Shown: positions 6,619 through 32,458, numbered from the stretch's first letter. The stretch: 37,968 nucleotides of DNA from an uncultured Clostridia bacterium (GCA_944372715.1 CALVZZ010000048.1:1-37968), one strand, 5' to 3'. Translations and numbers: made by a program. Notes: a model not told the origin generated them from the sequence alone.

Positions 6619-7797
6619 TTAAATTTCTCTTGTTTCATTTACGCCGTCAATAAAGCCACAAGGAGAAGTACACTTGAAGTTATTAAATGTGCATCTTGCA
6701 CCCTTTGTATAAGATTGCATTTCACTTGCTCTTGGATGAGAATTCTTTTGTAAATTCTCAACATACTTTTTGAGTGTTTCATTTGTTTGGTTGTTAATTT
6801 CAAGTTGAGCAAAAGTACACTTTCTTTCCATCATTTTTAAAACAAAATTGTCAAATGAGCCCATTTCATTTACAGAAATTAAAAGCCCTTGTGGATAAAC
6901 CCTTGCTTGTTTTTGACAATCTTCCGTCCATTCCTTGATTAAGTCTTTATCGTGCATTAAAATTGGTGGTACATAAAATTCATCGTCATCTTTTAATTTA
7001 AACGAATAAGATAATGTTCTATGCCTTTGTGCTTGAGCTAGACAAGCAAAACTTGTTGTATAACTTGTTGCATAAACATCACCAAAATATTCTACCAAAT
7101 GATCATTAAAATTCATTAATGACAACACTCTTCCCTTACTATCAGCAGAAATAAGCTCATCAAAATATGGAGTTGTCTTTTTAATACATTCACAAAAATC
7201 AATCATTGCTGGCTTTAACATCTTATAAAATCTGTTCTGTTGATTATCGTCTTTATTTATCTCTTTTTGCATCATATGGTATATATAATTTAGTTGCCTA
7301 TAAGTTGTTGAATAAACCATTGATGTTGGTGTGAATACTGAAATGAGATATCTAGCATTTTCCTGAGCAAGTTTTTCAATTTTTTTCTCTGTAAAAATTT
7401 TTGGATATTTTTCTTGATATTTGTCTCTTATAAGTTTTTTAAAAATATCCAGCCATTTATCATAAAGTTTTTTCTCATCTTCTTTTAAAATCATTTTTGT
7501 GTATCTTGCACTTTTTTCACTTGTGGTGTATTGCTTTTCATTGTTTAACACCATTGCTAATGCTTTGGGAATATCTTCTAAATACAAGTTTATCATTGCG
7601 TGGTCAAAAACACTATGATGTCCACTACTTTTTGTTTGAACAGCCCTTTTGTTTGTTTTTTCTACATCTTCATTCACAAGTTCGTTAAAGCTTCCTGGCA
7701 TATAACACACTCCAGCATTGTGTCCACTAAACAATTCAATTTCTTCCTTGCTTGAAACATAATTGGGTTTTGTTGAACCTATAATTGAGATTTTCAT
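6619..7797 (-). CDS. thyX: ThyX-family FAD-dependent thymidylate synthase, atypically long (392 aa) with non-canonical motif order
   Basis: Track ORF 6619..7833. I prefer ATG 7797 (MKISIIG), preceded by AAAGGAGAA. ThyX hallmarks: 'SSGHHSVFDH', 'SEKSARY', 'AQENARYL', 'QRHRTLSYS', 'ARVYPQG', 'ERKCTFAQLEI'. The C-terminal tail is Cys-rich ('RCTFNNFKCTSPC'). Confidence 0.7.
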   Translation of the reverse strand: MKISIIGSTKPNYVSSKEEIELFSGHNAGVCYMPGSFNELVNEDVEKTNKRAVQTKSSGHHSVFDHAMINLYLEDIPKALAMVLNNEKQYTTSEKSARYTKMILKEDEKKLYDKWLDIFKKLIRDKYQEKYPKIFTEKKIEKLAQENARYLISVFTPTSMVYSTTYRQLNYIYHMMQKEINKDDNQQNRFYKMLKPAMIDFCECIKKTTPYFDELISADSKGRVLSLMNFNDHLVEYFGDVYATSYTTSFACLAQAQRHRTLSYSFKLKDDDEFYVPPILMHDKDLIKEWTEDCQKQARVYPQGLLISVNEMGSFDNFVLKMMERKCTFAQLEINNQTNETLKKYVENLQKNSHPRASEMQSYTKGARCTFNNFKCTSPCGFIDGVNETREI

Positions 7798-7817
7798 AAT
7801 TCTCCTTTGTTTTTTTA

Positions 7818-7846
7818 ATGATATCATTAACAATACACATTGTCAA
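7818..7846 (-). promoter_or_regulatory. Sigma-70-type promoter for thyX
   Basis: The minus strand reads TTGACA (7846-7841), a 17-nt spacer, then TATCAT (7823-7818), about 20 nt upstream of the SD/ATG at 7797. Confidence 0.5.
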
Positions 7847-9457: not shown

Positions 9458-11158
9458 TCAACCTCTTTGGACTATAATAATTCTCTGTATTCCAGAATAA
9501 TCTTTAATTATTTTAACACTAAAATTCTTTTTTGAAAAGAACTTTTTTACGCTTTTTTCTTGTCCTTTGCCAATTTCAAGCAAGATGACACCACGAGCAG
9601 ACAAATAATTTTCAAATTGTTCGCTTATTTTTTTATAAAAATAAAGTCCATCTTCACCACCATCTAATGCTATTAAAGGGTCATAGTCCTTAACTTCCCT
9701 GTCTAACTTTTTAATGTCTTCGCTTTTAATGTACGGTGGATTACAAGTTATAATATCAAACTTTTTACTCTTTTTTAGCTCTGAAAAAAGATCACCACAT
9801 ATAAAATTTATTTTAACATCATTGTTTTTTGCATTTGTTTTTGCAACTCCTAAAGCCTTCTCACTTATATCTATTGCAGTAACCTTTGCACTTGATTTTT
9901 TTGCAATTGTTATTGCAATAGCTCCACTGCCTGTGCATAAATCCAAAACGCTTAATTTTTGTTTCCCTATAATTTTTAACGCTTCTTCAACTAATATCTC
10001 TGTTTCTTTGCGTGGAGTTAAAACATCTTTATTTACAAAAAATGGAAGACCATAAAACTCAGTTTTACCCAAAATTTTATCTATTGGTTCACCTTTTACT
10101 CTTCGCTCTAAAACTCTTTGAATTTTTTTATAATCAGACCTAGAAATTTGTGTTAATAACTTAATTTCTGCTCTGTTTTTATTTAATACGCTTGCAATCA
10201 ACCAATCTGTTTCTGCGCTGTCTGTTATTCCTGCACTTGCTAATTTGTTTTTAACTTCTGAATAGCATAAAGAAAAGGCGATATTACCACCTTGGCTATC
10301 TTCATTAATGACTTCTCTTTTTAAATTTTCTAACATTAATTTCCCTTCACTTAATCCTGTGTTGGCAGTTTGAATTTCCGTACTTGATGGTTTACTATTA
10401 ACAAAAAAGCTTGTAATTAATATTGGATACCTAAACTTTAAAAAAAATTTATCGAACAGATAACATATTTCATAAACAATACTTGCTTCTAATAAAAATA
10501 TTCCAACATTTACAAAAGCTTTTAACCAAAAGCTTACCTCAATTCCTAATATTGATACCACAAAATAATTTAAAATCCAACAAAAAACAATAAAGTTTAA
10601 GTAATTTGTTGCTCTATGAGAGCTTAATTGAATTTCTCCATTTAAAACTTTATTACCAGCAGAGTTAAATTTATAGAGTTTTCTCATTGATGAAAAAGAA
10701 TACAAAAAAGCTAGTAACAACACAAACATTGCAACTTTAACTAATGCAATCACCAATTTTTTTACAAATATGGACAAACTTGCCCCTGCAATGTAATACC
10801 CCAAATGAGTTGGAATGATACCTAAAAATATCACAGATATACATATTGCAAGCAATAAGCTTATTGTGCCAAAAACATAACTTGATTGAATATTTAAACT
10901 TTTGGAAACTCTATCATTTAATCTAGGGATTGGTGTATTTTTAATACTTAAATATAACCCCCAAAAAAAATAAAATGTTCCAAAAATTAAATATTCAATT
11001 CCTCTTAAAAATGGTATTTTATGGTTTGGAATTGGAGAATATTTAGTTTTAAAACTTTGTAAAAAAATAGAACCATTTGTTCTCACCATACATAAAACAG
11101 CATTGTTTCCAACGAAACAAAGATTTCCGTTAAAGCTTGGATAAATAAAAGATTTCAT
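9458..11158 (-). CDS. prmC: Fusion protein: degenerate DUF1385-like membrane domain (about 10330..11158) plus release-factor glutamine N5-methyltransferase PrmC/HemK (9458..~10291)
   Basis: The C-terminal half has SAM motif I 'VLDLCTGSGAIAI' and the catalytic 'NPPY' ('IITCNPPYI'). The N-terminal ~275 aa are polytopic, with 'KIPFLRGIEYLI' as in DUF1385 (YqhQ family). The family's 'HGAEHK' and 'HPRCGT' positions read 'NSAGNK' and 'SHRATN'. It ends with TGA. Confidence 0.85.
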   Translation of the reverse strand: MKSFIYPSFNGNLCFVGNNAVLCMVRTNGSIFLQSFKTKYSPIPNHKIPFLRGIEYLIFGTFYFFWGLYLSIKNTPIPRLNDRVSKSLNIQSSYVFGTISLLLAICISVIFLGIIPTHLGYYIAGASLSIFVKKLVIALVKVAMFVLLLAFLYSFSSMRKLYKFNSAGNKVLNGEIQLSSHRATNYLNFIVFCWILNYFVVSILGIEVSFWLKAFVNVGIFLLEASIVYEICYLFDKFFLKFRYPILITSFFVNSKPSSTEIQTANTGLSEGKLMLENLKREVINEDSQGGNIAFSLCYSEVKNKLASAGITDSAETDWLIASVLNKNRAEIKLLTQISRSDYKKIQRVLERRVKGEPIDKILGKTEFYGLPFFVNKDVLTPRKETEILVEEALKIIGKQKLSVLDLCTGSGAIAITIAKKSSAKVTAIDISEKALGVAKTNAKNNDVKINFICGDLFSELKKSKKFDIITCNPPYIKSEDIKKLDREVKDYDPLIALDGGEDGLYFYKKISEQFENYLSARGVILLEIGKGQEKSVKKFFSKKNFSVKIIKDYSGIQRIIIVQRG

Positions 11159-22410: not shown

Positions 22411-22418
22411 AACTCATA

Positions 22419-22448
22419 ACACAGCTTGTACATTAGCTGTGTTTTTTA
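22419..22448 (+). terminator. Intrinsic terminator of rpsF-ssb-rpsR
   Basis: acacagct (22419-22426) pairs with agctgtgt (22435-22442), followed by T5. Confidence 0.6.
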
Positions 22449-22449
22449 T

Positions 22450-22486
22450 AAAAAAAGGACAAAAGTTTAAGCTTTTGTCCTTTTTA
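22450..22486. terminator. Second hairpin, a bidirectional terminator serving the convergent AT-hook gene
   Basis: ggacaaaag (22457-22465) pairs with cttttgtcc (22472-22480). It is flanked by A7 upstream and T5 downstream, 2 nt from the stop at 22488. Confidence 0.6.
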
Positions 22487-22487
22487 A

Positions 22488-25151
22488 TTATTTATTATCG
22501 TCATTATTTTCTGTTGTTTGAACAGAATCTTGAACATTGTCAATAGATGGATTATCTGATTGAGATGTTTCAGTATTATCTAATTGTGAAAGTGTTATAC
22601 CTAAAGCATTATTTAATTCTGCTTGTTGACGTTGCAATTTTAAATTTTCTTCCAAAATTTGCTCATTAAGTCTTTTTATTTCATCTAAACTGTCCTGAGT
22701 TTTTCTTGGTCTACCACGTTTTTTAGCTTGCTTTGGTGATTGCTCTGATTCAGACTGTACTTTTTTTGGTCTTCCACGCTTCTTTGGTTCTACTGTTTCA
22801 GAACTTTCAGTTTCAACTTTTCTTGGTCTACCACGCTTTGCAGGAGTGGTTTCTTCTGTAACATTTTTCTTTGGACGACCAACTTTTCTTGATGTTGACG
22901 AATTTTTTGCTGGTCTACCAACCTTATTTTCTGATGTCGCATCCTTTTTAGGTCTACCTACTTTATTTTTTACTTTACCTTCTTCTTGTTGCTCTTCAAC
23001 TTTTCTAGGTCTACCTCTACCCTTCTTTGGTTTTTGATCTTCTTCGGTTTGAACTTTTCTTGGTCTTCCACGTTTTTTAGTCACATTTTCAGTTTCATTT
23101 GCACCTTCATCTTGAACCTTTTTAGGTCTGCCTCGTCTTTTAGGTTGAGTTTCATCAACCTTCTCTGTTGCTTCCTTCCTAGGTCTACCACGTTTCTTTG
23201 GTTCTACCACATCAACATTTTCAGTTTCAACTTTTCTTGGTCTACCACGTTTCTTAACTTCTTTATGTTCTTCATTTTCTTGTTCATTTTCTTGAACAGA
23301 TTCGTCAATTTCATTGCTTTCAGAAGATTCTTCAACTACATTTTCTTGATCGGTTATCCCTTCAAGCTGATTCTCCTCATCGCTCAGATTTTCCACAGGT
23401 TGTTGTTCTATATTTTCTTCTTGTACAACATTATTTTCATTGTTTTCAGGTGGGAAATAATTACCATCTTTATCATAAACACCACCAAACTCATCGTGAT
23501 AATTGCCATCTGGGTCGTAATATGTACCATTTGCGTATCTATAATAACCTTGGTCATCATAATAGCCACCATACTCGTCATATACAGGTTCTTCGTTAGC
23601 TTGCTCTGATTGTTGAGCAGAATCTACCTGTTGAGCCACATCATCATCTTGTTGAGTTTCTGCTGTTTCGCTTTTACTATCCTTTTTGCCAACTTTAACC
23701 TTTTTAGCCTCTTCTCTTAAAGCTTCATTAAAGTATTCGTATTCACCATTAGATACACCTGCATTGTCAAGAGCTTTCCTAAGATCTGCAATTTCCTTTT
23801 TTTGTGCTTCTATTGTGAAATTTGCCTGTTGCAATTCTTCGGATATACCATCTTTTAATTGGATGATAGCTTGTTTTTCTCCATTAACTTTATCTTCAAT
23901 AGATTTGTCAATTTGGTCATAAACTTTCTTAGAGAATGTTTCATATTCAGCCTTCATAGCTTCTTCAACAAACTTTCTTCTCTCTTCAAGTTCTGCCCTT
24001 TTGTTTGATATTTCAGTTTGGAGTGCTTGTACTTCATTGTTAAATCTTACAGTTGAATCATCAAAATCTCTTTCCAACTGCTCTTGCTTCTTGATTTCAT
24101 CTTGCTGTTGTTTTTTGATGTAGTTTCCTTCAATACGGTTTGTTGATTCTTCCTGTTGCTTTCTTAACCTATCAACATTTTCCTTACTTGCTTGAAGTTT
24201 TCTCTGATAATCTTTTTGTGTATTTTCATAGTTTCTTTTCAAACTTTCAACTTCACTTTCAAACTGTTGAATTTCTCCTAGGGTTCTTTGTCTGAAATTC
24301 AAATATGTTTCAGTTTCCTTCATAGCTCTATCAAGAACTAAGCTTCCATCAATTCCCATACTTGAAAAATCAAAAACTTCGTGTTCAACTGCATTAAGTC
24401 TTGCCTTTTCAAGTTCTTCTTGTTCTTGCCTTGCTCTCTTTTCCAAATATTCATTAAGAACAGAAATTCCCTTTTTAATTTCTTTCCTTGTGAAAAGAAC
24501 TTCAAAGTCAACATATTCAGGCATTGTTGTTACAGCTTTATCCATCTTTCTATCAAAATAATGAAAATACAAATAAAACTTACTTATATTTCTATCTTGC
24601 CTTGCCCTTAATAGCATTATAAAAATTACATTGATAATGAAAATTATTGATGGTATAACAAGAACTTGTGCAAATTCAAGAGCAGAAAAAGCTGATGATG
24701 AAACATAAGCTAAACCAATCACAAACGACACTGCCATTATCGCATAATTGATTGCCCCCAAATTCTTTATATTTGAAGAAAATGAACTTGTTCTTAAAGG
24801 CTTTTCAATAATATTATATGGAGACATATAAAAACTTGGATCTTTTTCTCTATATAACATATATTGATGCCAATGGTATCTTAATAACTTTGGTGTCTTT
24901 TTCATCAAATTATTAAATTCAATCAAATTATTTTGGTCAATAAATTGATTTGTGTTTAACCACCTATTAAGTTTATATAAAATTCTTTCCATTCTCATTT
25001 CATAACTAAAACTTGACTTAATTATGAAAAATACAATCATAAGAAGTTCAAAGCCAACTGCCAAATAAAACAAAATGTCCCAAGTGATAGTCCCAGCCAA
25101 ACCTGTCAAGAACTTTCTTATTTCCAAAACTATATCTGCCAACCCTGACAT
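22488..25151 (-). CDS. Large membrane-anchored coiled-coil protein with a C-terminal array of 11 AT-hook motifs (887 aa); no characterised homologue known to me
   Basis: Track ORF starts at TTG 25205. I prefer ATG 25151 (MSGLADIV), preceded by AAGGGGGAA. There are three hydrophobic segments in the first ~200 aa. A long E/K/Q-rich heptad-like region follows, then a Tyr/Gly/Asp-rich stretch and an acidic stretch. Then come 11 copies of [KR][KRV]GRP[RKA]K. Confidence 0.8.
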   Translation of the reverse strand: MSGLADIVLEIRKFLTGLAGTITWDILFYLAVGFELLMIVFFIIKSSFSYEMRMERILYKLNRWLNTNQFIDQNNLIEFNNLMKKTPKLLRYHWHQYMLYREKDPSFYMSPYNIIEKPLRTSSFSSNIKNLGAINYAIMAVSFVIGLAYVSSSAFSALEFAQVLVIPSIIFIINVIFIMLLRARQDRNISKFYLYFHYFDRKMDKAVTTMPEYVDFEVLFTRKEIKKGISVLNEYLEKRARQEQEELEKARLNAVEHEVFDFSSMGIDGSLVLDRAMKETETYLNFRQRTLGEIQQFESEVESLKRNYENTQKDYQRKLQASKENVDRLRKQQEESTNRIEGNYIKKQQQDEIKKQEQLERDFDDSTVRFNNEVQALQTEISNKRAELEERRKFVEEAMKAEYETFSKKVYDQIDKSIEDKVNGEKQAIIQLKDGISEELQQANFTIEAQKKEIADLRKALDNAGVSNGEYEYFNEALREEAKKVKVGKKDSKSETAETQQDDDVAQQVDSAQQSEQANEEPVYDEYGGYYDDQGYYRYANGTYYDPDGNYHDEFGGVYDKDGNYFPPENNENNVVQEENIEQQPVENLSDEENQLEGITDQENVVEESSESNEIDESVQENEQENEEHKEVKKRGRPRKVETENVDVVEPKKRGRPRKEATEKVDETQPKRRGRPKKVQDEGANETENVTKKRGRPRKVQTEEDQKPKKGRGRPRKVEEQQEEGKVKNKVGRPKKDATSENKVGRPAKNSSTSRKVGRPKKNVTEETTPAKRGRPRKVETESSETVEPKKRGRPKKVQSESEQSPKQAKKRGRPRKTQDSLDEIKRLNEQILEENLKLQRQQAELNNALGITLSQLDNTETSQSDNPSIDNVQDSVQTTENNDDNK
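22689..23255 (-). repeat. Imperfect tandem coding repeats (period ~39-63 nt) encoding the AT-hook array
   Basis: The plus-strand core 'cttggtctaccacg(t/c)tt' and variants (ggtcttccacg, ggtctacctac, ggtctgcctcg, ggacgaccaac) recur 11 times. Each encodes K/R-G-R-P-R/K-K on the minus strand. Confidence 0.8.
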
Positions 25152-25191
25152 ATTTCCCCCTTTTATTACAAAAAGATTTAAAATCAATGTT

Positions 25192-25220
25192 AGTATAACA
25201 CACAAAATTATTTTTAACTA
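25192..25220 (-). promoter_or_regulatory. Candidate extended -10 promoter for the AT-hook gene
   Basis: The minus strand reads TGTTATACT (TGn + TATACT, hexamer at 25197-25192), about 40 nt upstream of ATG 25151. The -35 is poor (TAGTTA at 17-nt spacing). Confidence 0.35.
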
Positions 25221-25271
25221 ATATTTTTTGACAATTTTTTAATATTTTTTAATTATTTTTTTAATATTTTT

Positions 25272-28200
25272 TTATTCATTTATTTTTATTAATTCAAACT
25301 TATTAAAATTATATAAATATAATTCATCAATCTTTATTTTAAATGCTTTTTCTACAGCCTTTTTATAAAGCAAAAGTTGAGTTTTATATTTTTTTACAAG
25401 TTTTTCATTATCTAATATTGAGGTCAATTTATAATCTACAATAATATTTTTTGCCCCCAAGCTTAAAAGATCTATTACCCCTTGAACAAGTATTTTTTCT
25501 TCACTACCATTTTTTATTATTTCATTTTGATTAACATACATCATAAATCCCTGCTCTTTAAAAATGTTGTGGGAACCCGTTTTATTTAAAATATCTTTTA
25601 TTATTTGATAAGCTTTTAATATTTTATTTTTATCAATTTTTTCTGGTATTTCAATGTTTAATGACTTTTCATTAAAATCAATTTGTTGCATTAAATTATG
25701 ATATTCCGTTCCTATTGTTGAAAAATCTTCTTTCAAGTGCTCATTTATGTAAAAATACTTTGGGGAAATGTTTTGACTATAACCTCTTTCTTCATCAACC
25801 AACCTACTAACAGAATTTTTTAAGGCAATACTTGTCTCTTTTTCAAATGGATATTTAAAGTTAAAATATCGTTTTAGTATTTCTTTTACTTTTTCATCAC
25901 TTTTCAAAGATTTATTTTGAATTGAGTTTAAATTAAAATTGATTGATTCATAAATGTTTATATTAAAAATTTCATTTTTAATTGATAAGTTTTCATTTAT
26001 ATTTTTAATATGGTTGCCACTTAGACTTCCAACAACAAGATCTAAAAAAGATTTTTGTTTAAAAACATCGTAATCGTTACTTATTTTTTTAAAATCACCA
26101 GCAGATGAGCCAACAATAAATAAATGGTTTTTTGCCCTTGTCAAAGCCACATATAAAATTCTCAACTTTTCAGCAAATTCATTCTTTTTTTGAAGCCCTT
26201 TTAAAATGTCATAAACAAGTGAAGGTTTGTCGTCAGGCATTTCTTTTATTCCAATACCTAATTTTTCATTAAGAACAATGCTATTATTTGTAGCATTTTT
26301 TGTTAAATCTGCCCCAGAATTAACAAGAAATACTACAGGATATTCTAATCCTTTGCTTGAATGTATAGTTGTTACACTTACGCTATTGCTTCCATAAGTA
26401 TAGGCAGGTGCAATAACCAAATTCTTTTCTGCAAAGTCCAAAAAGCCAACAAGATCATAATTATATCCATTTTTTAAGAAGTCGTTTACAAACTTTGTTA
26501 TGTTATTTCTATCTTTAATTTTAAATCTTTGTATAAATTTTGTTTTATTAATAATGTTAGTAAGCGCTACATAAATACCATAAGAAGAAATTTCAAAATT
26601 AAAATCTTCATACAATTTCAAAAAATCTTTTATTTTTTGTTGCAATTTGTCATCAAAATTGTATTTTATCATTTTTTCATAAAGAGTATTTCCGTCAATT
26701 TCAGCAATTTCAGAAAGCTCGTTTAAATTTACATCACCAAATTCCCTAATTGATGATGCAAGTGAAACATCGTCATAGACATTAACAGCCAAATTTAATA
26801 AATTTAAAATTATTTTAACTATATTATTTGAATATAAATACTCTCTTGAATTTGCTTGCACAGGAATACCAAATCGAGAAATTGTCGAACAAAACTTGTC
26901 TAAGTACTTGCCTCTTGCATTCAACAAAATTGTAATGTCCTTAAAATCTATTTTCCTAATGTTTTTGTTATCATAAATTTCTTGTCCAACCAACTCAGAA
27001 ATTTTTTCAGCTACAATTCTAGCCTCAGACTCAGCAACAGCTTCTTCTTGACTTTCAATTTGAACATCTTTCACACTATAAACACTTGGTGCAACAATGT
27101 CTGCCTTATCTTCCTTTCTTTTAATTATTTCAATATTTACTGCTGGAAAAGTGTTAGAAACATTTTTATATTCAGCTTTCGGATTAAATTTAGATGTGTT
27201 TTTGTAATCTATTCCAGAAGTAAGCAAAGTCATTACATTTTCAAAAATTAAATTAACAAAATTTAAAATTTCCGATCTACTTCTAAAATTAGAATTCAAA
27301 GCTAAACTTATGCTGTTATTGTCCAATTTAAAACTTTCCTGTATACCCAAAAAAATTTCTGGATTAGCTTGACGAAAAGCATAAATACTTTGTTTAACAT
27401 CGCCAACCATAAATCTGTTTCTTCCATTTGAAAGTTGACTTAAAATTTTTTCCTGAATCAAGTTTGCATCTTGATATTCATCAACATATATTTGTTTAAA
27501 TTCCTTTTTTAAAGAATTTAATGTTTTTTCGTCAGAAATAAGTTTTAACATATATTTTTCTAAATCATTAAAATCTAAACAATTTAAGTCTTTTTTATAA
27601 TTTTCATAAATATTGTTATATTTTTCATAAACATTTAAAACACTTTCTACTATATTTTTACTTTCAGACAAAAGGCTTGAAATATTCTCTTCCGACAATT
27701 CTAAATTTTTTAAACTAGTTTTATACACATTTATCTTTTCTCTTAATCTTATAATTTCTTTATAAACAAAATTTTCTTCATCTTTTGCCAATCTTTGAAA
27801 AGATATTTGCAAAACTTTATTATAATTGTACAAAAAATCCAGTTTTTTATCTGTTTCACTAAGCATAGAAATAATACCATTTATGTATGAAATATATTTT
27901 TCTTGCCCTTTTGCCTCGTCTAAAATTTTATTTGCATCAGATATAAAAGAAGAAATTTTAAAACACAAACTATCATTTAAAAAATTTTGTATCTTTTGCT
28001 CATCTTTATACATTGAAAGGGAAACATTTTTTAACCAAACCTCCCCATTTGCCAAAGATGAAACAAATTCATTTATAGTTTTAATAACCTGTTGCAAACT
28101 TTTATCCGTTCTATCATTTCCATAAAGTTCCAATAATTTATTGTAACACAAAGGATTCTCTTGATAAAATTGTTGCATTGCCTCTTTTAGTGCCTTTGCT

Positions 28201-28586
28201 TTTAAGTTTTCAATTTCCAACTCATCAATTAAAGAAAATGAAGGATCAATACCCAAAATATAAAAATACTTTTTTATCTCTTTTTGAAAAAAACTGTGTA
28301 TTGTAGATATATTTGCAACAGGCAAATCATCTATTTGTGATAATATTTCCGGATTGCTTTCGGCATTTTCATATATTGCATTTAATAACCTTTGCTTCAT
28401 TTCTTCAGCAGAAGACTTCGTATATGTTAAAACCAAGATGTCTTTAACCCCAATTCCATCTTTTATTATCCCTTTTATGATTTTTCTAATCATTACAGTA
28501 GTTTTCCCACTGCCAGCTGATGCAGACACAATCAAATTTTTCCCAAAAGAATTAACAACTTCATCTTGCGCTTCATCTTTAATCAT
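25272..28586 (-). CDS. addA: ATP-dependent helicase/nuclease subunit A (AddA/RexA)
   Basis: UvrD/PcrA-type motifs 'VSASAGSGKTTVM', 'VDEYQDAN', 'VGDVKQSIYAFR', 'TIHSSKGLEYPVV', 'YVALTRAK'. The C-terminal PD-(D/E)XK nuclease has 'GVIDLL...IIVDYKLT'. I prefer ATG 28586 (GAGGA SD) over the track's TTG 28604. It overlaps the addB stop by 8 nt (ATGATTAA). Confidence 0.9.
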   Translation of the reverse strand: MIKDEAQDEVVNSFGKNLIVSASAGSGKTTVMIRKIIKGIIKDGIGVKDILVLTYTKSSAEEMKQRLLNAIYENAESNPEILSQIDDLPVANISTIHSFFQKEIKKYFYILGIDPSFSLIDELEIENLKAKALKEAMQQFYQENPLCYNKLLELYGNDRTDKSLQQVIKTINEFVSSLANGEVWLKNVSLSMYKDEQKIQNFLNDSLCFKISSFISDANKILDEAKGQEKYISYINGIISMLSETDKKLDFLYNYNKVLQISFQRLAKDEENFVYKEIIRLREKINVYKTSLKNLELSEENISSLLSESKNIVESVLNVYEKYNNIYENYKKDLNCLDFNDLEKYMLKLISDEKTLNSLKKEFKQIYVDEYQDANLIQEKILSQLSNGRNRFMVGDVKQSIYAFRQANPEIFLGIQESFKLDNNSISLALNSNFRSRSEILNFVNLIFENVMTLLTSGIDYKNTSKFNPKAEYKNVSNTFPAVNIEIIKRKEDKADIVAPSVYSVKDVQIESQEEAVAESEARIVAEKISELVGQEIYDNKNIRKIDFKDITILLNARGKYLDKFCSTISRFGIPVQANSREYLYSNNIVKIILNLLNLAVNVYDDVSLASSIREFGDVNLNELSEIAEIDGNTLYEKMIKYNFDDKLQQKIKDFLKLYEDFNFEISSYGIYVALTNIINKTKFIQRFKIKDRNNITKFVNDFLKNGYNYDLVGFLDFAEKNLVIAPAYTYGSNSVSVTTIHSSKGLEYPVVFLVNSGADLTKNATNNSIVLNEKLGIGIKEMPDDKPSLVYDILKGLQKKNEFAEKLRILYVALTRAKNHLFIVGSSAGDFKKISNDYDVFKQKSFLDLVVGSLSGNHIKNINENLSIKNEIFNINIYESINFNLNSIQNKSLKSDEKVKEILKRYFNFKYPFEKETSIALKNSVSRLVDEERGYSQNISPKYFYINEHLKEDFSTIGTEYHNLMQQIDFNEKSLNIEIPEKIDKNKILKAYQIIKDILNKTGSHNIFKEQGFMMYVNQNEIIKNGSEEKILVQGVIDLLSLGAKNIIVDYKLTSILDNEKLVKKYKTQLLLYKKAVEKAFKIKIDELYLYNFNKFELIKINE

Positions 28587-31500
28587 CTTTATCCTCGCTT
28601 TCAAAAAAGTCCTTTTTAATTTTATATTGTTTTTTCCTCATTTCATCTTCTTGTGTAATCTTACATATCGCCCCAAACTTACAAAACTTACAAGCTTCTT
28701 CTCCGAGTGGACTAGGTTTTATGTTTCCTTGTTCCATTTCCTCTATTGCCTTAACTGTTATACTTTCTGCATATTTTTTCATATTGTTAAAAGTCTGCCA
28801 ACTTAAAGCAGAACTAGAATACTCAATAATGCCATCTTTTATATTTTCTTTGTTCGTTTTTATTTTTAGTCCTTTAATAATTCTACTTGTTGGATTTTCA
28901 AAGGTTAATGTGTTATCAAATGCTTTTAAAATTTCTTCATTGTCAACATAAAAGCCATTAAGCTTTTTATCTTTTTCGTTATTTTTAATTTTTAAATAGA
29001 AAACGCCAACAGGAATTAAATTTGTTTCTTTTTCAACAAATTTTAAATATAAAAACAATTGCAATTTTTCACCATAATAAAGTTCTTCAAAATTGCCCAA
29101 ATCTTTTCCACCGGTTTTATAATCTACAATCCTAAAATAATCTTTATATTTATCAATTCTATCAACCACCCCAACAAGATTATATTGATTGTTTTTGGTA
29201 TCAATTTGATATTTTATTTTTTTCTCACAAAGATATGGAACAAATGATGAGTTTAAATATGTTTCTGATAAAAACTCCAACAAGCTTTTCATTTCCTTAA
29301 TAATATTTTCTTTGTTTGGAAGATTTTTTTTCAAATTAAATTTATAAAACTTATCTTCTTTGAAAATTTTTGATATAACTTCATCAAAATTAACATTTTT
29401 TACATCAAAAATTACATTTTCTAAAAATTTATGTATAAAATTCCCAATATCAGCAGGTGTGATATCTGATAAAACTTTTTCTTTCAAATTTAATTTATAC
29501 GAACAAAAATGTTTGAATGGACAGCTTAAATATGTTTCAATCTGAGTAACTTTTAATTTTTTATCTATCAATTTTTTTGTATAAACATCTTCTTTTTTTC
29601 CATACTCCATTAAATCTATTAAGGATTTGTTGACAATATCATTAAATCCATCAAATTCAACATCTTGACCATCAATAGATAAGTACGCAAGCTGCAGTGC
29701 TTGTTTTGACAATTCTTCTCCTGTCTGTATATATTTATCACTTGACAAGTGTAAACCTTGCCCATTATTCTCAAATATTTTTTGCAAAGATTTTATAACA
29801 CTTGATGGCAAATTTTGCTTTTCACCATTGTCAAAAAGCGGATAACTCACAAACAATTTTTCATCAAATGCTGACATAATAGACAAAAGCTTAAACTTGT
29901 TTCTTCTATTAATCATTTTTATAGTGGGTTCTATACTTTTTCCAATCTCTATCCTTTCAATATCTTTATCCGTTAAAACCCCACAATCAGAAAGGTAGTT
30001 TGGCAAATCCGACTCAGTTGCCCCAATTACAAACAAAATTTTATTTTTAGGAATAAAACCAGATGTTGCATCAATCACAACAATATTATCCACAGATGCT
30101 GGAACTGTAGAAATTTTTTGAGAAGAAAAAGCTATGTCTAAAATTTTTATAAAATCAGATAATGTTTCATTTACTCCCATTGTTTTTAAATTATCAATAA
30201 TGGAAATAATTTTATCATAAAGTTGAATATAGATTTTTTCTTGTTTAATTTCATTGTTTTTTGCATAAGCATTTGAAAAATTTATTATTTTTTCTTTAAA
30301 TTCGTAAATATCAATAATATTTTCTAAAAAATCAATATAATTTTTGCAATTTTTATAAATATTTAATAATTTTGAAAGTTTTTCAAAATTATCTTTAATA
30401 AATTTTATATTTGCGTTTATATCATATTTATATATTTGATTAATTAAATCACTTTTATTTTCACATTCACAAAATGGCGACAAAATATAACTAATTAAAT
30501 CTTCTTTTTTAAAATTATACAAGAACAAATTTAAAATTATAAAAATAAATTTAATTGGAAATAGTTCTTTTAAAACTATATTGTTATCTAAATAATATGA
30601 AAAATTTAAACGATTAAATATTTTTTCTATATATGCTGAATATTTATCAAGACCAGCAACTGCTATTTGAATATCCTTATATCTATAACCACAAGTAAGG
30701 AGTTCTTTTATTTTTCTTGCAACCATCTTTACTTCTTCTTCCATATCTGATGCTTGCCATAATGCAATGTTGTTAGTGTTATATTTGTCCACTTTATAAG
30801 CAAACAGATTTTCCAATATTTGTCTACTTTCTGTTTGCAAAGAACAAGGAATTTCAATTACATTTAATTCTGTATTTAATGCCTTAATTTTATTCCACAA
30901 ATCATTTTCATAAACATAGGCATTTGCTTGCAAAAAAGGTTGCGTCAAGGCAACAACAACCTCCTTTGCAACTTCATTTAATCTAGTTAAAATTGTCATT
31001 CCCTGATTTGTCAATGAGTCAAAACCAACAAAAAGCACTGTGGTGTCTTTTAATTTAATATCACCTAATGCATTATCAAGTTCATTTAAAACTCCTGCCG
31101 AATCCAACCTTCCATTTAACAATTTTTCATATTCATTATATATCAAAAATATATCATCAAGTTTTACCTTTAAATTTTCCTCATTAACCTGAAATTTTTC
31201 AAACGGACTTATACAAGCAGATTTAAATTGTGAAATTGTATTCTTAATTTGTTCGCAAACACCAAAGTTAACCTCTTTAAAACACTTTAATTCAGCTTGC
31301 TTTCTGATTATTGCAAGTCTTATTAAAATTAAAGTTCCCAAATCAGAAACAGATTCCTTTTCTATTCCTTTTTGAGATAAAATTGATTTAGCAAATTTTG
31401 CTATACCCATTACCTTTACATTAAAAAGAGATTCCACATTCAAAATTTGAAAAATATTTTTTTCTAAACTTAATGAATATCTATCAGGGGTAATGACGAT

Positions 31501-31587
31501 ATATTTATCTGAAAAAGAATTTGGAACAATTTGTTTAATTGCACCAATTTCTGCATCTATAAAATTATTTGATTTTATTATTTTCAC
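28579..31587 (-). CDS. addB: ATP-dependent helicase/nuclease subunit B (AddB/RexB) with Fe-S cysteine staple
   Basis: The position upstream of addA with translational overlap supports the call. The C-terminal RecB-like nuclease has 'VGVVDRIDKYKDYFRIVDYKTG'. Four Cys ('YLSCPFKHF' and 'CKFCKFGAIC') match the AddB iron-sulfur cluster pattern. It has a GTG start at 31587 without an obvious SD, so the start is uncertain. No N-terminal P-loop is visible. Confidence 0.85.
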   Translation of the reverse strand: MKIIKSNNFIDAEIGAIKQIVPNSFSDKYIVITPDRYSLSLEKNIFQILNVESLFNVKVMGIAKFAKSILSQKGIEKESVSDLGTLILIRLAIIRKQAELKCFKEVNFGVCEQIKNTISQFKSACISPFEKFQVNEENLKVKLDDIFLIYNEYEKLLNGRLDSAGVLNELDNALGDIKLKDTTVLFVGFDSLTNQGMTILTRLNEVAKEVVVALTQPFLQANAYVYENDLWNKIKALNTELNVIEIPCSLQTESRQILENLFAYKVDKYNTNNIALWQASDMEEEVKMVARKIKELLTCGYRYKDIQIAVAGLDKYSAYIEKIFNRLNFSYYLDNNIVLKELFPIKFIFIILNLFLYNFKKEDLISYILSPFCECENKSDLINQIYKYDINANIKFIKDNFEKLSKLLNIYKNCKNYIDFLENIIDIYEFKEKIINFSNAYAKNNEIKQEKIYIQLYDKIISIIDNLKTMGVNETLSDFIKILDIAFSSQKISTVPASVDNIVVIDATSGFIPKNKILFVIGATESDLPNYLSDCGVLTDKDIERIEIGKSIEPTIKMINRRNKFKLLSIMSAFDEKLFVSYPLFDNGEKQNLPSSVIKSLQKIFENNGQGLHLSSDKYIQTGEELSKQALQLAYLSIDGQDVEFDGFNDIVNKSLIDLMEYGKKEDVYTKKLIDKKLKVTQIETYLSCPFKHFCSYKLNLKEKVLSDITPADIGNFIHKFLENVIFDVKNVNFDEVISKIFKEDKFYKFNLKKNLPNKENIIKEMKSLLEFLSETYLNSSFVPYLCEKKIKYQIDTKNNQYNLVGVVDRIDKYKDYFRIVDYKTGGKDLGNFEELYYGEKLQLFLYLKFVEKETNLIPVGVFYLKIKNNEKDKKLNGFYVDNEEILKAFDNTLTFENPTSRIIKGLKIKTNKENIKDGIIEYSSSALSWQTFNNMKKYAESITVKAIEEMEQGNIKPSPLGEEACKFCKFGAICKITQEDEMRKKQYKIKKDFFESEDKDD

Positions 31588-31678: not shown

Positions 31679-32458
31679 TTAATTTGATTTTTTAATCTTT
31701 TTTTGTTGATCAACCTTTTCTACAAATGCTTTTAAGGAAGATAACTTTTCCCCTTTTATTTTATGTGATAAATCTTTTGCCTTATCACTTCTTAATTTGT
31801 TTAATTCTTCTTTAATCAAAAGCTTTTCATTTTTTAATATTTCAAAATTCTTTTTTAGAATTTCTAATTCCTTTTGTTTTCTAACAAGTTCAACCATTAC
31901 ACTTCTTAATGATGCATTTGCATCTTCAAACTCGGCAAAAATTTTATCTTCTGCCTGCTCAATAGCTGATTTTTTTATTAATCTGACAAGACCCATAAAA
32001 AGCGAGTTTATTTCAGAGTCAGTAAGCAACTTTTTTTTAGGAGACATTGTCACAACCTTACATTTTTCTTCTTTTTCAACATTTCTATATTTATTTTGTA
32101 ACCTTAACATTTCTTTGACATTACCATTTGCCAAAGTACAACACGCACTTCTAACAGAATAACCTTTATTCAATAAATCTTTAACCTTTATTGACAACTC
32201 TTTGGTTTCTGTATCTGAAAATGTTTTCACTTTTAAAGGATTATGTGAATCTATATTAATATTTAGTGATAATCTTTTTTCTTTATTAAAACTCAATTCT
32301 TTAATTGTTTTATAATAATAGTTTCTAACACTATTGGGCTTCCTGTTAAACATATTTGCAAAATAAACAAAAGCTTTTGATAGTGGTAAATTTTTTTGTT
32401 TAAACTCTTCAACAATATTAAATAATTCTTTTGTTTCTTTATCATTCCACATCCACAT
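31679..32458 (-). CDS. Myb/SANT-like DNA-binding protein with C-terminal coiled coil (RsfA-family-like)
   Basis: GAGGTGA SD before ATG 32458. There are two W/F-x-(D/T)-x-E-T-K-E-L type helix-turn-helix repeats: 'WNDKETKELFNIVEEFKQKNLPLSKAFVYFANMFNRKPNSVRNYYYKTIKE' and 'FSDTETKELSIKVKDLLNKGYSVRSACCTLANGNVKEMLRLQNKYRN'. An E/K/L-rich coiled coil follows. Size and layout resemble the Bacillus RsfA family. Confidence 0.5.
   Translation of the reverse strand: MWMWNDKETKELFNIVEEFKQKNLPLSKAFVYFANMFNRKPNSVRNYYYKTIKELSFNKEKRLSLNINIDSHNPLKVKTFSDTETKELSIKVKDLLNKGYSVRSACCTLANGNVKEMLRLQNKYRNVEKEEKCKVVTMSPKKKLLTDSEINSLFMGLVRLIKKSAIEQAEDKIFAEFEDANASLRSVMVELVRKQKELEILKKNFEILKNEKLLIKEELNKLRSDKAKDLSHKIKGEKLSSLKAFVEKVDQQKKIKKSN

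What the first reader, a model, noticed from the sequence alone, without database searches (positions are those of the whole stretch)
22488..25151. Membrane-anchored coiled-coil protein ending in 11 AT-hook (GRP) motifs: candidate nucleoid-to-membrane tether
The translation shows a clear series of regions. (1) Three hydrophobic segments lie in the first ~200 aa. The TM1-TM2 loop and the flank after TM3 ('RARQDRNISK..') are K/R-rich, so the positive-inside rule puts the long C-terminal part in the cytoplasm. (2) About 330 aa of E/K/Q/R-rich heptad-like sequence follows (coiled coil). (3) A Tyr/Gly/Asp-rich stretch 'YDEYGGYYDDQGYYRYANGTYYDPDGNYHDEFGGVYDKDGNYF' spans 23448..23588. (4) A ~64-aa acidic stretch follows. 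(5) Eleven copies of [KR][KRV]GRP[RKA]K occur with a 13-21 aa period (22689..23255). (6) A short terminal coiled coil ends the protein. R-G-R-P flanked by basic residues is the AT-hook core, which in HMGA-type proteins inserts into the minor groove of A/T tracts. In bacteria it is uncommon; Myxococcus CarD is the best-known case. I know of no characterised bacterial protein combining a polytopic anchor, a long coiled coil and a multivalent AT-hook array. In a genome this AT-rich it could bind nearly anywhere and physically couple DNA to the membrane. Possible roles are nucleoid anchoring or segregation, occlusion, or DNA transport. It lies directly downstream of addB-addA on the same strand, with no hairpin terminator in the 120-nt gap. 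Its neighbours include gyrBA, ssb and dnaB.
Basis: partly seen in the sequence, partly recalled or inferred. Interest (0 to 1): 0.7.

Follow-up and report, generated by a model that had tools for sequence, protein, structure and literature searches.

The report
ZorA-like membrane stalk with AT-hook tail
This gut-Clostridia gene encodes a membrane protein whose base is a distant relative of ZorA (the membrane subunit of the Zorya anti-phage motor), followed by a long stalk and 11 DNA-binding AT-hooks, and it nearly always sits just after the DNA-repair genes addB-addA, so it may link DNA to the membrane.

Summary
ORF 22488..25151 (-) encodes 887 aa with three hydrophobic helices, a long helical stalk, a Tyr/Gly-rich block, an acidic stretch, 11 GRP AT-hooks (0.09 expected; Pfam AT_hook E=4.6e-22) and a terminal helix.

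- The N-terminal 250 aa are the best-conserved part of an unannotated family, found in 172 species genomes of Christensenellales-like gut MAGs. Three tests indicate a remote ZorA homologue of the MotA/ExbB/TolQ type: Foldseek, a PDB profile search, and hhalign (probability 90%, nulls below 1%). It has no Pfam or PADLOC hit, lacks ZorA's ion-filter residues, and has no ZorB-like gene nearby.
- addB-addA lies directly upstream on the same strand in 71 of 75 informative loci, although AddA identity falls to about 30% and other neighbours change.
- AT-hooks are under selection: 73% of hook columns are identical among close relatives, against 17% of spacer columns. They occur in only about 60% of full-length homologues; about half of the hook-less ones have a strongly basic tail of another kind.

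Best reading: a ZorB-less ZorA-type stalk, possibly pentameric, that holds AT-rich DNA at the membrane and works with AddAB. The architecture is well supported. The function is inferred.

The parts
22488..25151 (-). Complete CDS: 887 aa plus stop codon.
   Evidence: ORF list and translation. Homologues share the same start.
25156..25163 (-). Shine-Dalgarno sequence (AAAGGGGG), 4 nt upstream of the ATG.
   Evidence: Sequence read. An SD-like motif occurs in 72 of 77 homologous loci.
25207..25234 (-). Promoter-like match TTGTCA-16-AATAAT in the gap after addA. This is weak evidence only.
   Evidence: Consensus scan: 10 of 12 positions match. Such matches are not enriched over shuffles in this AT-rich region.
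25083..25151 (-). N-terminal helix, aa 1-23, predicted to lie outside the cell as in ZorA.
   Evidence: AF2 helix 2-21. Low K+R content across the family.
25011..25082 (-). TM1, aa 24-47.
   Evidence: Hydropathy. AF2 helix 24-47 with pLDDT above 93.
24762..25010 (-). Membrane-proximal cytoplasmic domain, aa 48-130. It carries the family's invariant or near-invariant residues E51, N62, N75, F79, N80, K84, P87, R91, W94, Q95, R101, Y108, P118 and S122. It aligns to ZorA's equivalent domain.
   Evidence: Conservation table. In the HMM and hhalign alignments, R101, P105, P118 and T121 match ZorA R108, P112, P126 and T129.
24696..24761 (-). TM2, aa 131-152. It keeps a stripe of small residues (positions 135, 139, 142, 146) but lacks ZorA's GIIGTF motif.
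   Evidence: The residue mapping from the alignment is my own.
24609..24671 (-). TM3, aa 161-181, with near-invariant P167.
24354..24608 (-). Highly conserved block after TM3, aa 182-266 (A206, P211, D215, E217, L219, F220, E224, I225, P230, L232, Y235, F262, G266). It includes the first stalk helix, aa 230-253.
   Evidence: Conservation. AF2 model.
23700..24353 (-). Coiled-coil stalk, aa 267-484. Helices span 267-335, 339-463 and 475-484, which is about 30 nm if extended.
   Evidence: AF2 full-length model. pLDDT is mostly above 90 to about aa 430 and falls to about 57 by aa 463; the 475-484 helix is about 48. Conserved E324, E352 and E402.
23595..23699 (-). Disordered linker, aa 485-519.
   Evidence: AF2 pLDDT below 50.
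23442..23594 (-). Tyr/Gly/Asp-rich mini-domain, aa 520-570. It consists of about 7-aa D-x-D-G-x-Y-Y repeats predicted as beta-hairpins. Its function is unknown.
   Evidence: AF2 pLDDT 87-94 with short strands. Nearly invariant among close relatives. No significant Pfam or PDB sequence match.
23262..23441 (-). Acidic disordered stretch, aa 571-630: 22 D+E against 1 K+R.
22698..23261 (-). Array of 11 AT-hooks, aa 631-818, with the pattern [KRV]GRP[RKA]K: 64 K+R against 30 D+E. Disordered.
   Evidence: Pfam AT_hook E=4.6e-22. Motif positions. Hooks conserved while spacers vary. No DNA-level tandem repeat.
22563..22697 (-). Conserved C-terminal helix, aa 819-863 (DSLDEIKRLNEQILEENLKLQRQQAELN...).
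   Evidence: AF2 helix 820-863 with pLDDT 80-90. Invariant among close relatives. An 'EIDxLNxEMxxLL'-type helix ends many distant homologues.
22452..22485 (.). Hairpin terminator, usable in both directions, between this gene and the convergent rpsR.
25272..31587 (-). addB (28579..31587) and addA (25272..28604), the conserved upstream partners on the same strand.
   Evidence: Pfam hits ADDB_N, PDDEXK_1, UvrD-helicase and UvrD_C. Synteny in 71 of 75 informative loci.

Best explanation
The gene encodes a member of an uncharacterised, chromosomally inherited protein family of Christensenellales-like gut Clostridia.

**Architecture.** The first ~250 aa are a remote homologue of ZorA, the A subunit of the MotA/ExbB/TolQ class of 5:2 membrane motors. 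The layout is the same as in ZorA: an N-terminus outside the cell, TM1, a cytoplasmic membrane-proximal domain, a TM2-TM3 hairpin, and then a long cytoplasmic helical stalk. By analogy with ZorA, I infer that the base oligomerises, probably as a pentamer, and that the ~30 nm stalk is a coiled coil pointing into the cytoplasm.

**No sign of an active motor.** The ion-filter residues of ZorA are not kept and no ZorB-like gene is nearby. The base is therefore most likely a structural, non-rotating scaffold.

**The tail.** Beyond the stalk lie a small Tyr/Gly beta-hairpin module, an acidic spacer, a disordered array of 11 AT-hooks and a conserved terminal helix. The hooks are inferred to bind the minor groove of AT-rich DNA. 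The local genome is about 29% G+C. A pentamer would carry up to 55 hooks, which would give high-avidity, largely sequence-independent capture of DNA close to the membrane.

**Link to AddAB.** The gene is kept directly downstream of addB-addA across an order-level clade. I infer that it acts in the same process as the AddAB helicase-nuclease, by holding or presenting chromosomal or incoming DNA at the membrane for end processing and repair.

**Shown:** the anatomy, family conservation, ZorA similarity, selection on the hooks, and the synteny.
**Inferred:** oligomeric state, DNA binding, and the functional link with AddAB.
For: **Anatomy and AT-hooks.**

**Family.**
- 172 species genomes encode a relative.
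- 172 clusters at 50% identity match at E<1e-30.
- No member occurs in 2.9 million viral contigs.
- The rest of the window is housekeeping genes.

**ZorA homology.**
- The AF2 model of aa 1-334 has pLDDT 93.5.
- The top four Foldseek PDB hits are ZorA (E=4.5e-4 to 2e-3, probability 1.0). ExbB, TolQ, PomA and MotA follow. A separate full-length model gives the same result.
- The viral structure library gives nothing (best E=0.22).
- A sequence-only profile search of 177,635 PDB sequences ranks ZorA first, at equivalent positions (E=0.18).
- hhalign against a ZorA alignment gives probability 89.7-90.1% and score 49.5. Reversed alignments score 14.5 and 30 block-shuffles score at most 19.6.

**Topology.** Positive-inside counts across 25 diverse members. 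ZorA's own topology, from PMC11946911.

**Selection on hooks.** 47 of 64 hook columns are identical, against 18 of 107 spacer columns, in four relatives. Copy number changes by gain or loss of whole hook units.

**Synteny.** addB-addA lies immediately upstream on the same strand in 71 of 75 informative loci. AddA identity falls to 28-36% and downstream genes differ.
Against: - The ZorA link is remote, at 10-17% identity. No Pfam MotA_ExbB or PADLOC ZorA model matches.
- ZorA's filter residues T147 and S184 align to Ala/Met and Leu/Phe.
- No B-subunit gene lies in the window or is conserved in 80 loci.
- A pentamer is pure analogy. No multimer modelling was possible.
- AT-hooks are absent from about 40% of full-length homologues. 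Only about half of the hook-less ones have a strongly basic tail. DNA binding may therefore not be the family's core function.
- Four lineages keep the gene away from addBA.
- A gap of 70-250 nt always separates it from addA, so it may have its own promoter.
- No LexA box lies upstream in any of 77 loci.
- There are no experimental data of any kind.
Confidence: 0.5

Rival explanations
1. It is a simple nucleoid-to-membrane tether. The N-terminal helices only anchor the protein. The coiled coil dimerises. The AT-hooks hold the chromosome at the membrane for segregation, occlusion or anchoring. The position next to addBA has no functional meaning.
For: Membrane segments, a cytoplasmic tail and AT-hooks are all present. 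The neighbourhood is rich in replication genes. The 70-250 nt gap and a promoter-like site allow independent transcription.
Against: The 'anchor' and its cytoplasmic loops are the most conserved part of the protein and resemble ZorA. The addBA linkage survives where all other neighbours change. Many homologues lack hooks.
Confidence: 0.2
2. It is a stripped-down relative of the Zorya defence system. The ZorA-like base senses envelope disturbance or DNA entry at the membrane. The hook-bearing tail captures incoming AT-rich foreign DNA. AddAB, which degrades linear DNA that lacks Chi sites, serves as the nuclease effector in place of ZorC/ZorD.
For: ZorA is the closest solved structure. In Zorya, the ZorA tail controls a DNA-binding protein and a helicase-like nuclease (PMC11946911). 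Here a helicase-nuclease is the conserved neighbour.
Against: There is no ZorB, ZorC, ZorD or ZorE and no PADLOC match. The ion-filter residues are lost. The gene sits among housekeeping genes, not in a defence island. Its divergence appears to track that of AddA within a fixed gene order, which suggests vertical descent. It is absent from viral contigs.
Confidence: 0.12
3. It is an active ion-driven 5:2 motor. A MotB/ExbD/ZorB-like partner is encoded elsewhere in the genome, and rotation of the stalk does mechanical work on bound DNA.
For: The fold and topology match the A subunits of 5:2 motors. TM2 keeps a stripe of small residues at the positions that face the B-subunit helix in ZorA (my mapping).
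Against: The transmembrane helices are the least conserved part of the domain. The GxxGT motif and the T147/S184 equivalents are missing. No partner gene is linked in 80 loci. Pfam MotA_ExbB does not match any of 15 members even at E<=10.
Confidence: 0.08
4. It is a cell-division or envelope scaffold in the manner of EzrA. The conserved base and stalk are the functional parts. The charged, repetitive tail is a variable spacer or a general polyanion binder (RNA, polyphosphate, anionic lipid), not a dedicated DNA binder.
For: The base, stalk and terminal helix are conserved family-wide, whereas the tail chemistry varies. There are 0 GRP motifs in 75 of 186 full-length homologues, and weakly basic tails in about half of those.
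Against: Within the hook-bearing clade the full [KR]GRP[KR] core is under clear purifying selection. There is no Pfam or NCBIfam similarity to EzrA, DivIVA or other division proteins. The conserved neighbour is a DNA enzyme.
Confidence: 0.08
5. It is an extracellular surface protein whose tail binds extracellular DNA or the cell wall.
For: The Tyr/Gly repeats weakly resemble cell-wall-binding and MORN-type repeats in one homologue (E=0.07 and 0.23, below threshold).
Against: The positive-inside distribution is strong and conserved. The homologous ZorA tail is cytoplasmic. There is no signal peptide or sortase motif in the translation.
Confidence: 0.02

Closest known systems
ZorA of the Zorya anti-phage system (ZorA5B2; PDB 8qyd, 8qyy, 8vvn)
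   Same: - Three transmembrane helices with the N-terminus outside the cell.
- A helical membrane-proximal cytoplasmic domain between TM1 and TM2.
- A long cytoplasmic helical tail that starts just after TM3.
- ZorA is the best structural and sequence-profile match.
- Both are associated with DNA-targeting activities.
   Different: - Only 10-17% identity, with no HMM-level membership.
- It lacks ZorA's beta-hairpin insertion, the GIIGTF motif and the T147/S184 filter.
- There are no zorB, zorC or zorD genes.
- The tail helix is about 235 aa, against about 500 aa in ZorA. It continues into about 400 aa carrying a Tyr/Gly module and AT-hooks, which ZorA lacks.
- The context is housekeeping, with vertical inheritance.
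ExbB / TolQ / MotA / PomA (A subunits of Ton, Tol and flagellar stator motors; Pfam MotA_ExbB PF01618)
   Same: The overall fold and the ExbB/TolQ-type three-helix topology. These proteins fill most of Foldseek ranks 5-45.
   Different: The Foldseek E-values are weak (0.08-2). There is no PF01618 match. These proteins have no long tail and always work with a B subunit carrying a transmembrane Asp. No such subunit is linked here.
Eukaryotic HMGA proteins and Myxococcus CarD (AT-hook DNA binders)
   Same: The R-G-R-P core flanked by Lys/Arg, repeated in a disordered region next to an acidic stretch.
   Different: HMGA has 3 hooks and CarD has 4, and both are soluble. This protein has 11 hooks on a membrane-anchored stalk. 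The CarD_TRCF domain is absent. The statements about HMGA and CarD rest on my own knowledge.
Bacterial chromosome-to-membrane tethers: Noc (amphipathic helix plus ParB-like DNA binding), RacA-DivIVA, FtsK/SpoIIIE
   Same: The proposed outcome is the same: DNA held at the cytoplasmic face of the membrane. Like FtsK, this protein has a polytopic N-terminus, a long linker and a C-terminal DNA-binding part.
   Different: There is no ParB, HTH, DivIVA or FtsK motor domain. DNA binding would rely on multivalent minor-groove hooks. The membrane part is ZorA-like. The comparison rests on my own knowledge of those systems.

Membership tests
AT-hook (Pfam PF02178) | R-G-R-P core flanked by basic residues, scoring above the Pfam gathering threshold. 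| tested here: met
   75.5 bits against a cut-off of 17.4, E=4.6e-22, 8 stretches. 11 GRP motifs, 8 of them with the full RGRP core and 3 with VGRP.
AT-hook (Pfam PF02178) | Binds the minor groove of AT-rich DNA. | not testable with these tools
   Needs EMSA or footprinting with netropsin competition.
ZorA / A subunit of 5:2 motors (MotA/ExbB/TolQ superfamily) | ExbB-type topology: N-terminus outside, TM1, cytoplasmic helical domain, TM2-TM3 hairpin, C-terminus inside. | tested here: met
   Hydropathy, AF2 helices and family-wide K+R distribution.
ZorA / A subunit of 5:2 motors (MotA/ExbB/TolQ superfamily) | Fold similarity to solved A subunits. | tested here: met
   ZorA takes the top 4 places (E=4.5e-4, probability 1.0, target-normalised TM-score 0.47-0.56). 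ExbB, TolQ, PomA and MotA follow. The viral library control is empty.
ZorA / A subunit of 5:2 motors (MotA/ExbB/TolQ superfamily) | Sequence-profile similarity. | tested here: met
   hhalign probability 90%, score 49.5, against nulls of 19.6 or less. ZorA is the top PDB hit in the profile search, but only at E=0.18. This is remote similarity.
ZorA / A subunit of 5:2 motors (MotA/ExbB/TolQ superfamily) | Match to the curated family models (Pfam MotA_ExbB PF01618; PADLOC ZorA models). | tested here: not met
   No hit at E<=1 or E<=10. The newer ZorA family PF28082 is not in the Pfam copy used. The close homologues returned carry no precomputed PF28082 annotation.
ZorA / A subunit of 5:2 motors (MotA/ExbB/TolQ superfamily) | Conserved TM2 G-x-x-G-T motif and the polar filter residues that contact the B-subunit Asp (ZorA T147 and S184). 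| tested here: not met
   The aligned positions are 139 (Ala 67, Ser 16 of 111; Met in the window) and 171 (Leu/Ile/Val; Phe in the window).
ZorA / A subunit of 5:2 motors (MotA/ExbB/TolQ superfamily) | Adjacent gene for a B subunit (single transmembrane helix with Asp, usually with a peptidoglycan-binding domain). | tested here: not met
   None in the 38-kb window. No downstream gene family is shared by more than 12 of the loci with a complete gene. A partner encoded elsewhere in the genome could not be excluded.
ZorA / A subunit of 5:2 motors (MotA/ExbB/TolQ superfamily) | Pentameric assembly around a B dimer. | not testable with these tools
   No multimer prediction was available. Needs AF-Multimer, native mass spectrometry or cryo-EM.
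Zorya defence system | zorA-zorB operon with effector genes (zorC/D, zorE or zorF/G), usually in defence islands with patchy distribution. | tested here: not met
   No PADLOC hits for this protein or for the three unannotated neighbours tested. Housekeeping context. Fixed synteny across 71 of 75 loci.
CarD / HMGA-type AT-hook regulators | Soluble protein. CarD has an N-terminal CarD_TRCF RNA-polymerase-interacting domain. | tested here: not met
   AT_hook is the only Pfam hit. Three transmembrane helices are present.

The most novel reading that the evidence does not exclude
A ZorB-less ZorA-type pentameric stalk is a housekeeping device in a whole order of gut Clostridia. It physically couples AT-rich DNA (chromosomal breaks or incoming DNA) to the membrane and hands it to AddAB. 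It would be either the ancestral, non-immune form from which Zorya's membrane sensor, tail and DNA effector logic was recruited, or a domesticated Zorya remnant. Either way, it would be the first 5:2-motor A-subunit homologue with its own DNA-binding tail and a role in DNA repair or DNA handling.
Probability: 0.22. Interest if true: 0.85.

Novelty: new variant of a known kind. Interest (0 to 1): 0.72.

Why it matters
ZorA-type proteins are known only as parts of ion-driven 5:2 motors and, with their long tails, only from the Zorya anti-phage system. Four consequences would follow if this reading is right.

- A vertically inherited ZorA relative in a housekeeping context, with no B subunit and its own multivalent AT-hook tail, would widen what this protein architecture is understood to do.
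- It would give a concrete candidate for how some Firmicutes connect DNA to the membrane.
- The very stable addB-addA linkage suggests an accessory factor for the AddAB double-strand-break pathway that has not been described.
- The family is confined to abundant but almost uncultured gut bacteria (Christensenellales-like MAGs from humans, livestock and poultry). It carries no Pfam, NCBIfam or PADLOC annotation, so it is currently invisible to automated annotation.

Tried and rejected
**Database searches that found nothing**
- NCBIfam and PADLOC scans of the protein gave no hits.
- Pfam scans of the N-terminal domain of 15 members at E<=10 gave only scattered chance hits and no MotA_ExbB.
- Searching the 5.8-billion-protein database with a diverse N-terminal profile, to find sequences bridging to ZorA, returned only family members, mostly fragments.
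- Searching with a ZorA fragment returned only short ZorA pieces. I used these to build alignment A3.

**Search for a ZorB/MotB/ExbD-like partner**
- Pfam scans of 20 window ORFs found none. The unannotated ORFs upstream of addB were inspected only by eye.
- Clustering all ORFs within 4 kb downstream in the loci with a complete gene gave no family shared by more than 12 loci.

**Regulation and repeats**
- No GAAC-N4-GTTC (LexA/SOS) box occurs in 77 upstream gaps.
- Tandem Repeats Finder on the hook array found no unit-length DNA repeats, so the array is not a recent duplication.

**Tyr/Gly module**
- Pfam and PDB sequence searches gave nothing significant. One homologue weakly resembles Choline_bind_1 and MORN_2.

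**Other**
- No relative was found in viral contigs.
- Three literature searches found no description of such a protein.
- I rejected an extracellular reading and a plain low-complexity-drift reading, for the reasons given under the rival explanations.

Full report

Yes. The window holds an ORF at 22488..25205 (-), 905 aa from a TTG. The ATG at 25151 gives 887 aa. It follows a strong Shine-Dalgarno sequence (AAAGGGGG, 4 nt upstream) and coincides with the start of the homologues, so I take 22488..25151 as the gene.

The translation contains 11 GRP tripeptides at aa 636-815, spaced 13-21 aa apart. Eight have the full RGRP core and three have VGRP. From amino-acid composition, 0.088 GRP are expected. 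None of 100,000 shuffles of aa 631-820 gave five or more. Pfam AT_hook (PF02178) matches at E=4.6e-22, with 75.5 bits against a cut-off of 17.4.

Hydropathy and AlphaFold2 agree on three membrane helices at about aa 24-47, 131-152 and 161-181.

Three small corrections apply. The continuous helix is about 235-255 aa rather than 330. The gap after addA has no terminator but does contain a promoter-like match, which is not statistically meaningful in this AT-rich DNA. A strong hairpin terminator at 22452..22485 follows the stop codon.

**2. The gene belongs to a sizeable, unannotated family**

NCBIfam, PADLOC and Pfam (apart from AT_hook) give nothing.

- A search of 5.8 billion proteins with the first 308 aa found 17 relatives. 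All were unnamed or 'hypothetical', and most appear incomplete.
- A profile search of 1.84 billion cluster representatives found 347 hits at E<=0.001, of which 172 were below 1e-30. In the full-length listed hits, typically 600-1400 aa long, the domain lies at the N-terminus.
- A scan of one genome per GTDB species found relatives in 172 species. I fetched the best 80 loci.

These are metagenome-assembled genomes labelled Clostridia, Christensenellales, 'Christensenella sp. UBA...', or Candidatus Caccopulliclostridium gallistercoris (87% identical over the N-terminal domain). They come from human, chicken, ruminant and other guts. None of 2.9 million viral contigs encodes a relative.

**3. What is conserved**

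The conserved core is not the tail. It is the N-terminal ~330 aa, and within that the cytoplasmic parts rather than the membrane helices.

- Invariant or nearly invariant residues cluster in the TM1-TM2 loop: E51, N62, N75, F79, N80, K84, P87, R91, W94, Q95, R101, Y108, P118, S122.
- A second cluster follows TM3: A206, P211, D215, E217, L219, F220, E224, I225, P230, L232, Y235, F262, G266, R275, A276, E279, E281.
- In the membrane helices only P167 is near-invariant. TM2 has a stripe of mostly small residues at 135, 139, 142 and 146.

**4. The N-terminal domain is a remote homologue of ZorA**

An AlphaFold2 model of aa 1-334, built on 111 family sequences, is very confident (mean pLDDT 93.5, pTM 0.72). 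Several tests point to ZorA.

- *Structure search.* Foldseek against the PDB puts four ZorA chains of the Zorya ZorAB complex first (E=4.5e-4 to 2e-3, probability 1.0, target-normalised TM-score 0.47-0.56). ExbB, TolQ, PomA and MotA chains fill most of the next forty places.
- *Replication.* A second, full-length model gives the same ranking.
- *Control.* The same query against predicted viral structures finds nothing (best E=0.22, probability 0.16).
- *Sequence only.* An HMM of the family searched against 177,635 distinct PDB sequences returns ZorA as its three best hits (E=0.18-0.8). Family positions 102-206 align to ZorA 108-217, so that R101, P105, P118 and T121 fall on ZorA R108, P112, P126 and T129.
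- *Profile against profile.* I built a ZorA alignment from database fragments. Comparison with two different family alignments gave 89.7% and 90.1% probability (E about 2e-6, score 49.5). The match spans TM1 to TM2 in one comparison and the second part of the cytoplasmic domain through TM2, TM3 and the start of the next helix in the other.
- *Nulls.* Reversed alignments score 14.5. Thirty block-shuffled ZorA alignments score at most 19.6, with probability 0.8% or less.

The published ZorA structure has exactly this layout: three transmembrane helices, a membrane-proximal cytoplasmic domain (residues 48-127 and 207-222), and a tail from residue 223 that forms a pentameric coiled coil about 70 nm long (PMC11946911).

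**5. It is not an ordinary member of that family**

- Pfam MotA_ExbB does not match any of 15 members even at E<=10, and no PADLOC ZorA model matches.
- ZorA's hallmark TM2 motif (PGIxTGxGIIGTFxGL) is absent.
- Using the hhalign alignment, ZorA T147 falls on family position 139 (Ala in 67 and Ser in 16 of 111 sequences; Met in the window). ZorA S184 falls on position 171 (Leu/Ile/Val; Phe in the window). These two residues form the ion-selectivity filter that contacts ZorB Asp26, and they are not kept.
- The small-residue positions of ZorA TM2 (G143, T147, G150, G154) do align with the family's small-residue stripe (135, 139, 142, 146). This suggests TM2 still packs tightly against another helix. 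That is my inference.
- No B-subunit gene is present. Pfam scans of 20 window ORFs found no MotB, ExbD or OmpA-like protein. When all ORFs within 4 kb downstream in the loci with a complete gene were clustered, no family was shared by more than 12 loci. A partner elsewhere in these genomes cannot be excluded with the tools at hand.

**6. The rest of the protein**

The full-length AlphaFold2 model shows, in order:

| Residues | Feature | Confidence |
|---|---|---|
| 230-253, 267-335, 339-463 | stalk helices | pLDDT mostly above 90 to about aa 430, then falling to about 57 |
| 475-484 | short helix | pLDDT about 48 |
| 485-519 | disordered linker | pLDDT below 50 |
| 520-570 | compact set of short beta-hairpins (the Tyr/Gly block, about 7-aa D-x-D-G-x-Y-Y repeats) | pLDDT 87-94 |
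| 572-815 | disorder (acidic stretch, then the hooks) | pLDDT below 50 |
| 820-863 | terminal helix | pLDDT 80-90 |

The Tyr/Gly module has no significant Pfam or PDB sequence match. Its role is unexplained, although it is almost invariant among close relatives.

**7. Are the AT-hooks functional or drift?**

Both answers apply, at different depths.

- *Within the hook-bearing clade.* Among the 80 loci, nearly every complete homologue with at least 47% N-terminal identity has 3-11 GRP motifs. The two exceptions are a short 604-aa protein (L032) and a locus interrupted by Ns (L038). The deeper clade (46% identity or less, L067-L080) has none.
- *Across the family.* Of 186 full-length sequences, 111 have at least one GRP and 75 have none. 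The two sets pooled here overlap to some degree, so the counts include some redundancy. Among the 75, half have a strongly basic tail (net charge +10 or more per 60 aa), often Lys/Pro/Ala/Ser-rich in the manner of histone H1. Half do not.
- *Among four close relatives* (87-93% identical N-termini). The hook motifs are conserved by position while the spacers vary in sequence and length. 47 of 64 ungapped hook columns are identical, against 18 of 107 spacer columns. Copy number changes by gain or loss of whole hook units.
- *At the DNA level.* The array is not a recent tandem duplication.

So the hooks are selected for in this lineage, but DNA binding through AT-hooks is a clade-level elaboration, not the family's defining feature. 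A short helix of the 'EIDxLNxEMxxLL' type followed by Lys residues ends many distant homologues, but not all.

**8. Topology**

Across 25 diverse members, the TM1-TM2 loop carries on average 14.3 Lys+Arg (net +5.9). The N-terminal segment carries 1.8 and the TM2-TM3 loop 0.1. This places the loop, and therefore the whole tail, in the cytoplasm, as in ZorA. The extracellular reading is rejected.

**9. Genomic context**

Upstream on the same strand are AddB (ADDB_N and PD-(D/E)XK nuclease domains) and AddA (UvrD-type helicase).

- The arrangement addB-addA-gene is found in 70 of the 80 loci.
- Six of the remaining ten have too little upstream sequence. One of those six (L009) still shows the end of addA.
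- This gives 71 of 75 informative loci. The true exceptions are L011, L012, L020 and L032.
- The linkage persists while AddA identity falls to 28-36%.
- Other neighbours change: rpsF-ssb-rpsR is downstream in only three loci, and dnaB moves from upstream to downstream.
- The spacer between addA and the gene is always sizeable (71 nt or more, median 137 nt). It contains no LexA-type box in 77 loci.

Co-transcription is therefore possible but not shown. The rest of the window is housekeeping: prfA, prmC, ndk, thyX, gyrB and gyrA (by translation and by identity to L005), rpsF-ssb-rpsR, dnaB, glmS. It is not a defence island.

**10. Interpretation**

The best-supported picture is a ZorA-type membrane base that has lost, or never had, the ion-conducting features and the B subunit. 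By analogy it oligomerises, probably as a pentamer, and projects a ~30 nm coiled-coil stalk into the cytoplasm. At the end of the stalk are a small folded Tyr/Gly module, an acidic spacer, a flexible array of AT-hooks and a conserved helix.

In a genome of about 29% G+C, such an array, multiplied by the number of subunits, should bind DNA almost anywhere with high avidity. The unusually stable linkage to addBA argues that the protein takes part in what AddAB does: processing double-strand ends of the chromosome or of incoming linear DNA, close to the membrane.

The parallel with Zorya is suggestive. There, the ZorA tail controls a DNA-binding protein and a helicase-like nuclease. However, the housekeeping context, the apparently vertical inheritance and the missing Zorya components make a classical defence system unlikely.

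The architecture, conservation, homology and synteny are shown. The oligomeric state, DNA binding and the functional link to AddAB are inferences.

**11. Novelty and score**

I found no description of this family or of any ZorA relative with a DNA-binding tail. I rate it a new variant of a known kind: a divergent, B-less, tail-bearing member of the ZorA/ExbB structural class, fused to an AT-hook array.

Interest is 0.72. The combination would surprise specialists in both 5:2 motors and bacterial chromosome biology, and it yields direct, testable predictions. The function remains entirely inferential.

Noticed in passing
window 31679..32458 (-): A 259-aa ORF directly upstream of addB has no Pfam or PADLOC hit. 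It has a Trp-rich N-terminus (MWMWNDKETKELF...SVRNYYYKTIKE) that looks Myb/SANT- or RsfA-like, and a coiled-coil C-terminus. It is conserved at about 40% identity upstream of addB in 24 of 80 related loci. It may therefore belong to the same conserved gene cluster.
   Followed up: partly
window 23442..23594 (-), aa 520-570 of the protein: The Tyr/Gly/Asp-rich block is predicted with high confidence (pLDDT 87-94) as a stack of short beta-hairpins built from about 7-aa D-x-D-G-x-Y-Y repeats. It is almost invariant among close relatives, yet matches no Pfam family or PDB sequence. It is a possible new small repeat fold of unknown function.
   Followed up: partly
window 3280..5202 (+): A 640-aa ORF fuses an N-terminal hexapeptide-repeat (left-handed beta-helix acyltransferase-like) region to a complete four-domain phosphoglucomutase/phosphomannomutase (GlmM-like). 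This is an unusual fusion of two steps of amino-sugar nucleotide synthesis.
   Followed up: no
window 9458..11158 (-) and 6619..7833 (-): The PrmC-like methyltransferase ORF is 566 aa, with the PrmC domains only in its C-terminal half (aa 301-490). The ThyX-like ORF is 404 aa, with the Thy1 domain only at aa 39-188. Both have large unannotated extensions.
   Followed up: no
L011 10001..12505, L012, L020, L032: Four lineages carry the family gene without addBA upstream. In L032 the protein is short (604 aa) and ends just after the Tyr/Gly module, with no hooks or terminal helix. It is either a natural truncation or an assembly problem.
   Followed up: partly
databases: Most family members returned from the 5.8-billion-protein collection are fragments on short contigs. 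This suggests that this repeat-rich, low-complexity gene often breaks metagenome assemblies, which may be one reason the family has escaped annotation.
   Followed up: no
window 22418..22485: Two hairpins sit back to back between the convergent rpsR and this gene. One (22418..22443) matched the terminator scan on both strands. The other (22452..22485) matched on the + strand and, read on the - strand, sits directly after this gene's stop codon. Each gene therefore appears to have a terminator.
   Followed up: yes
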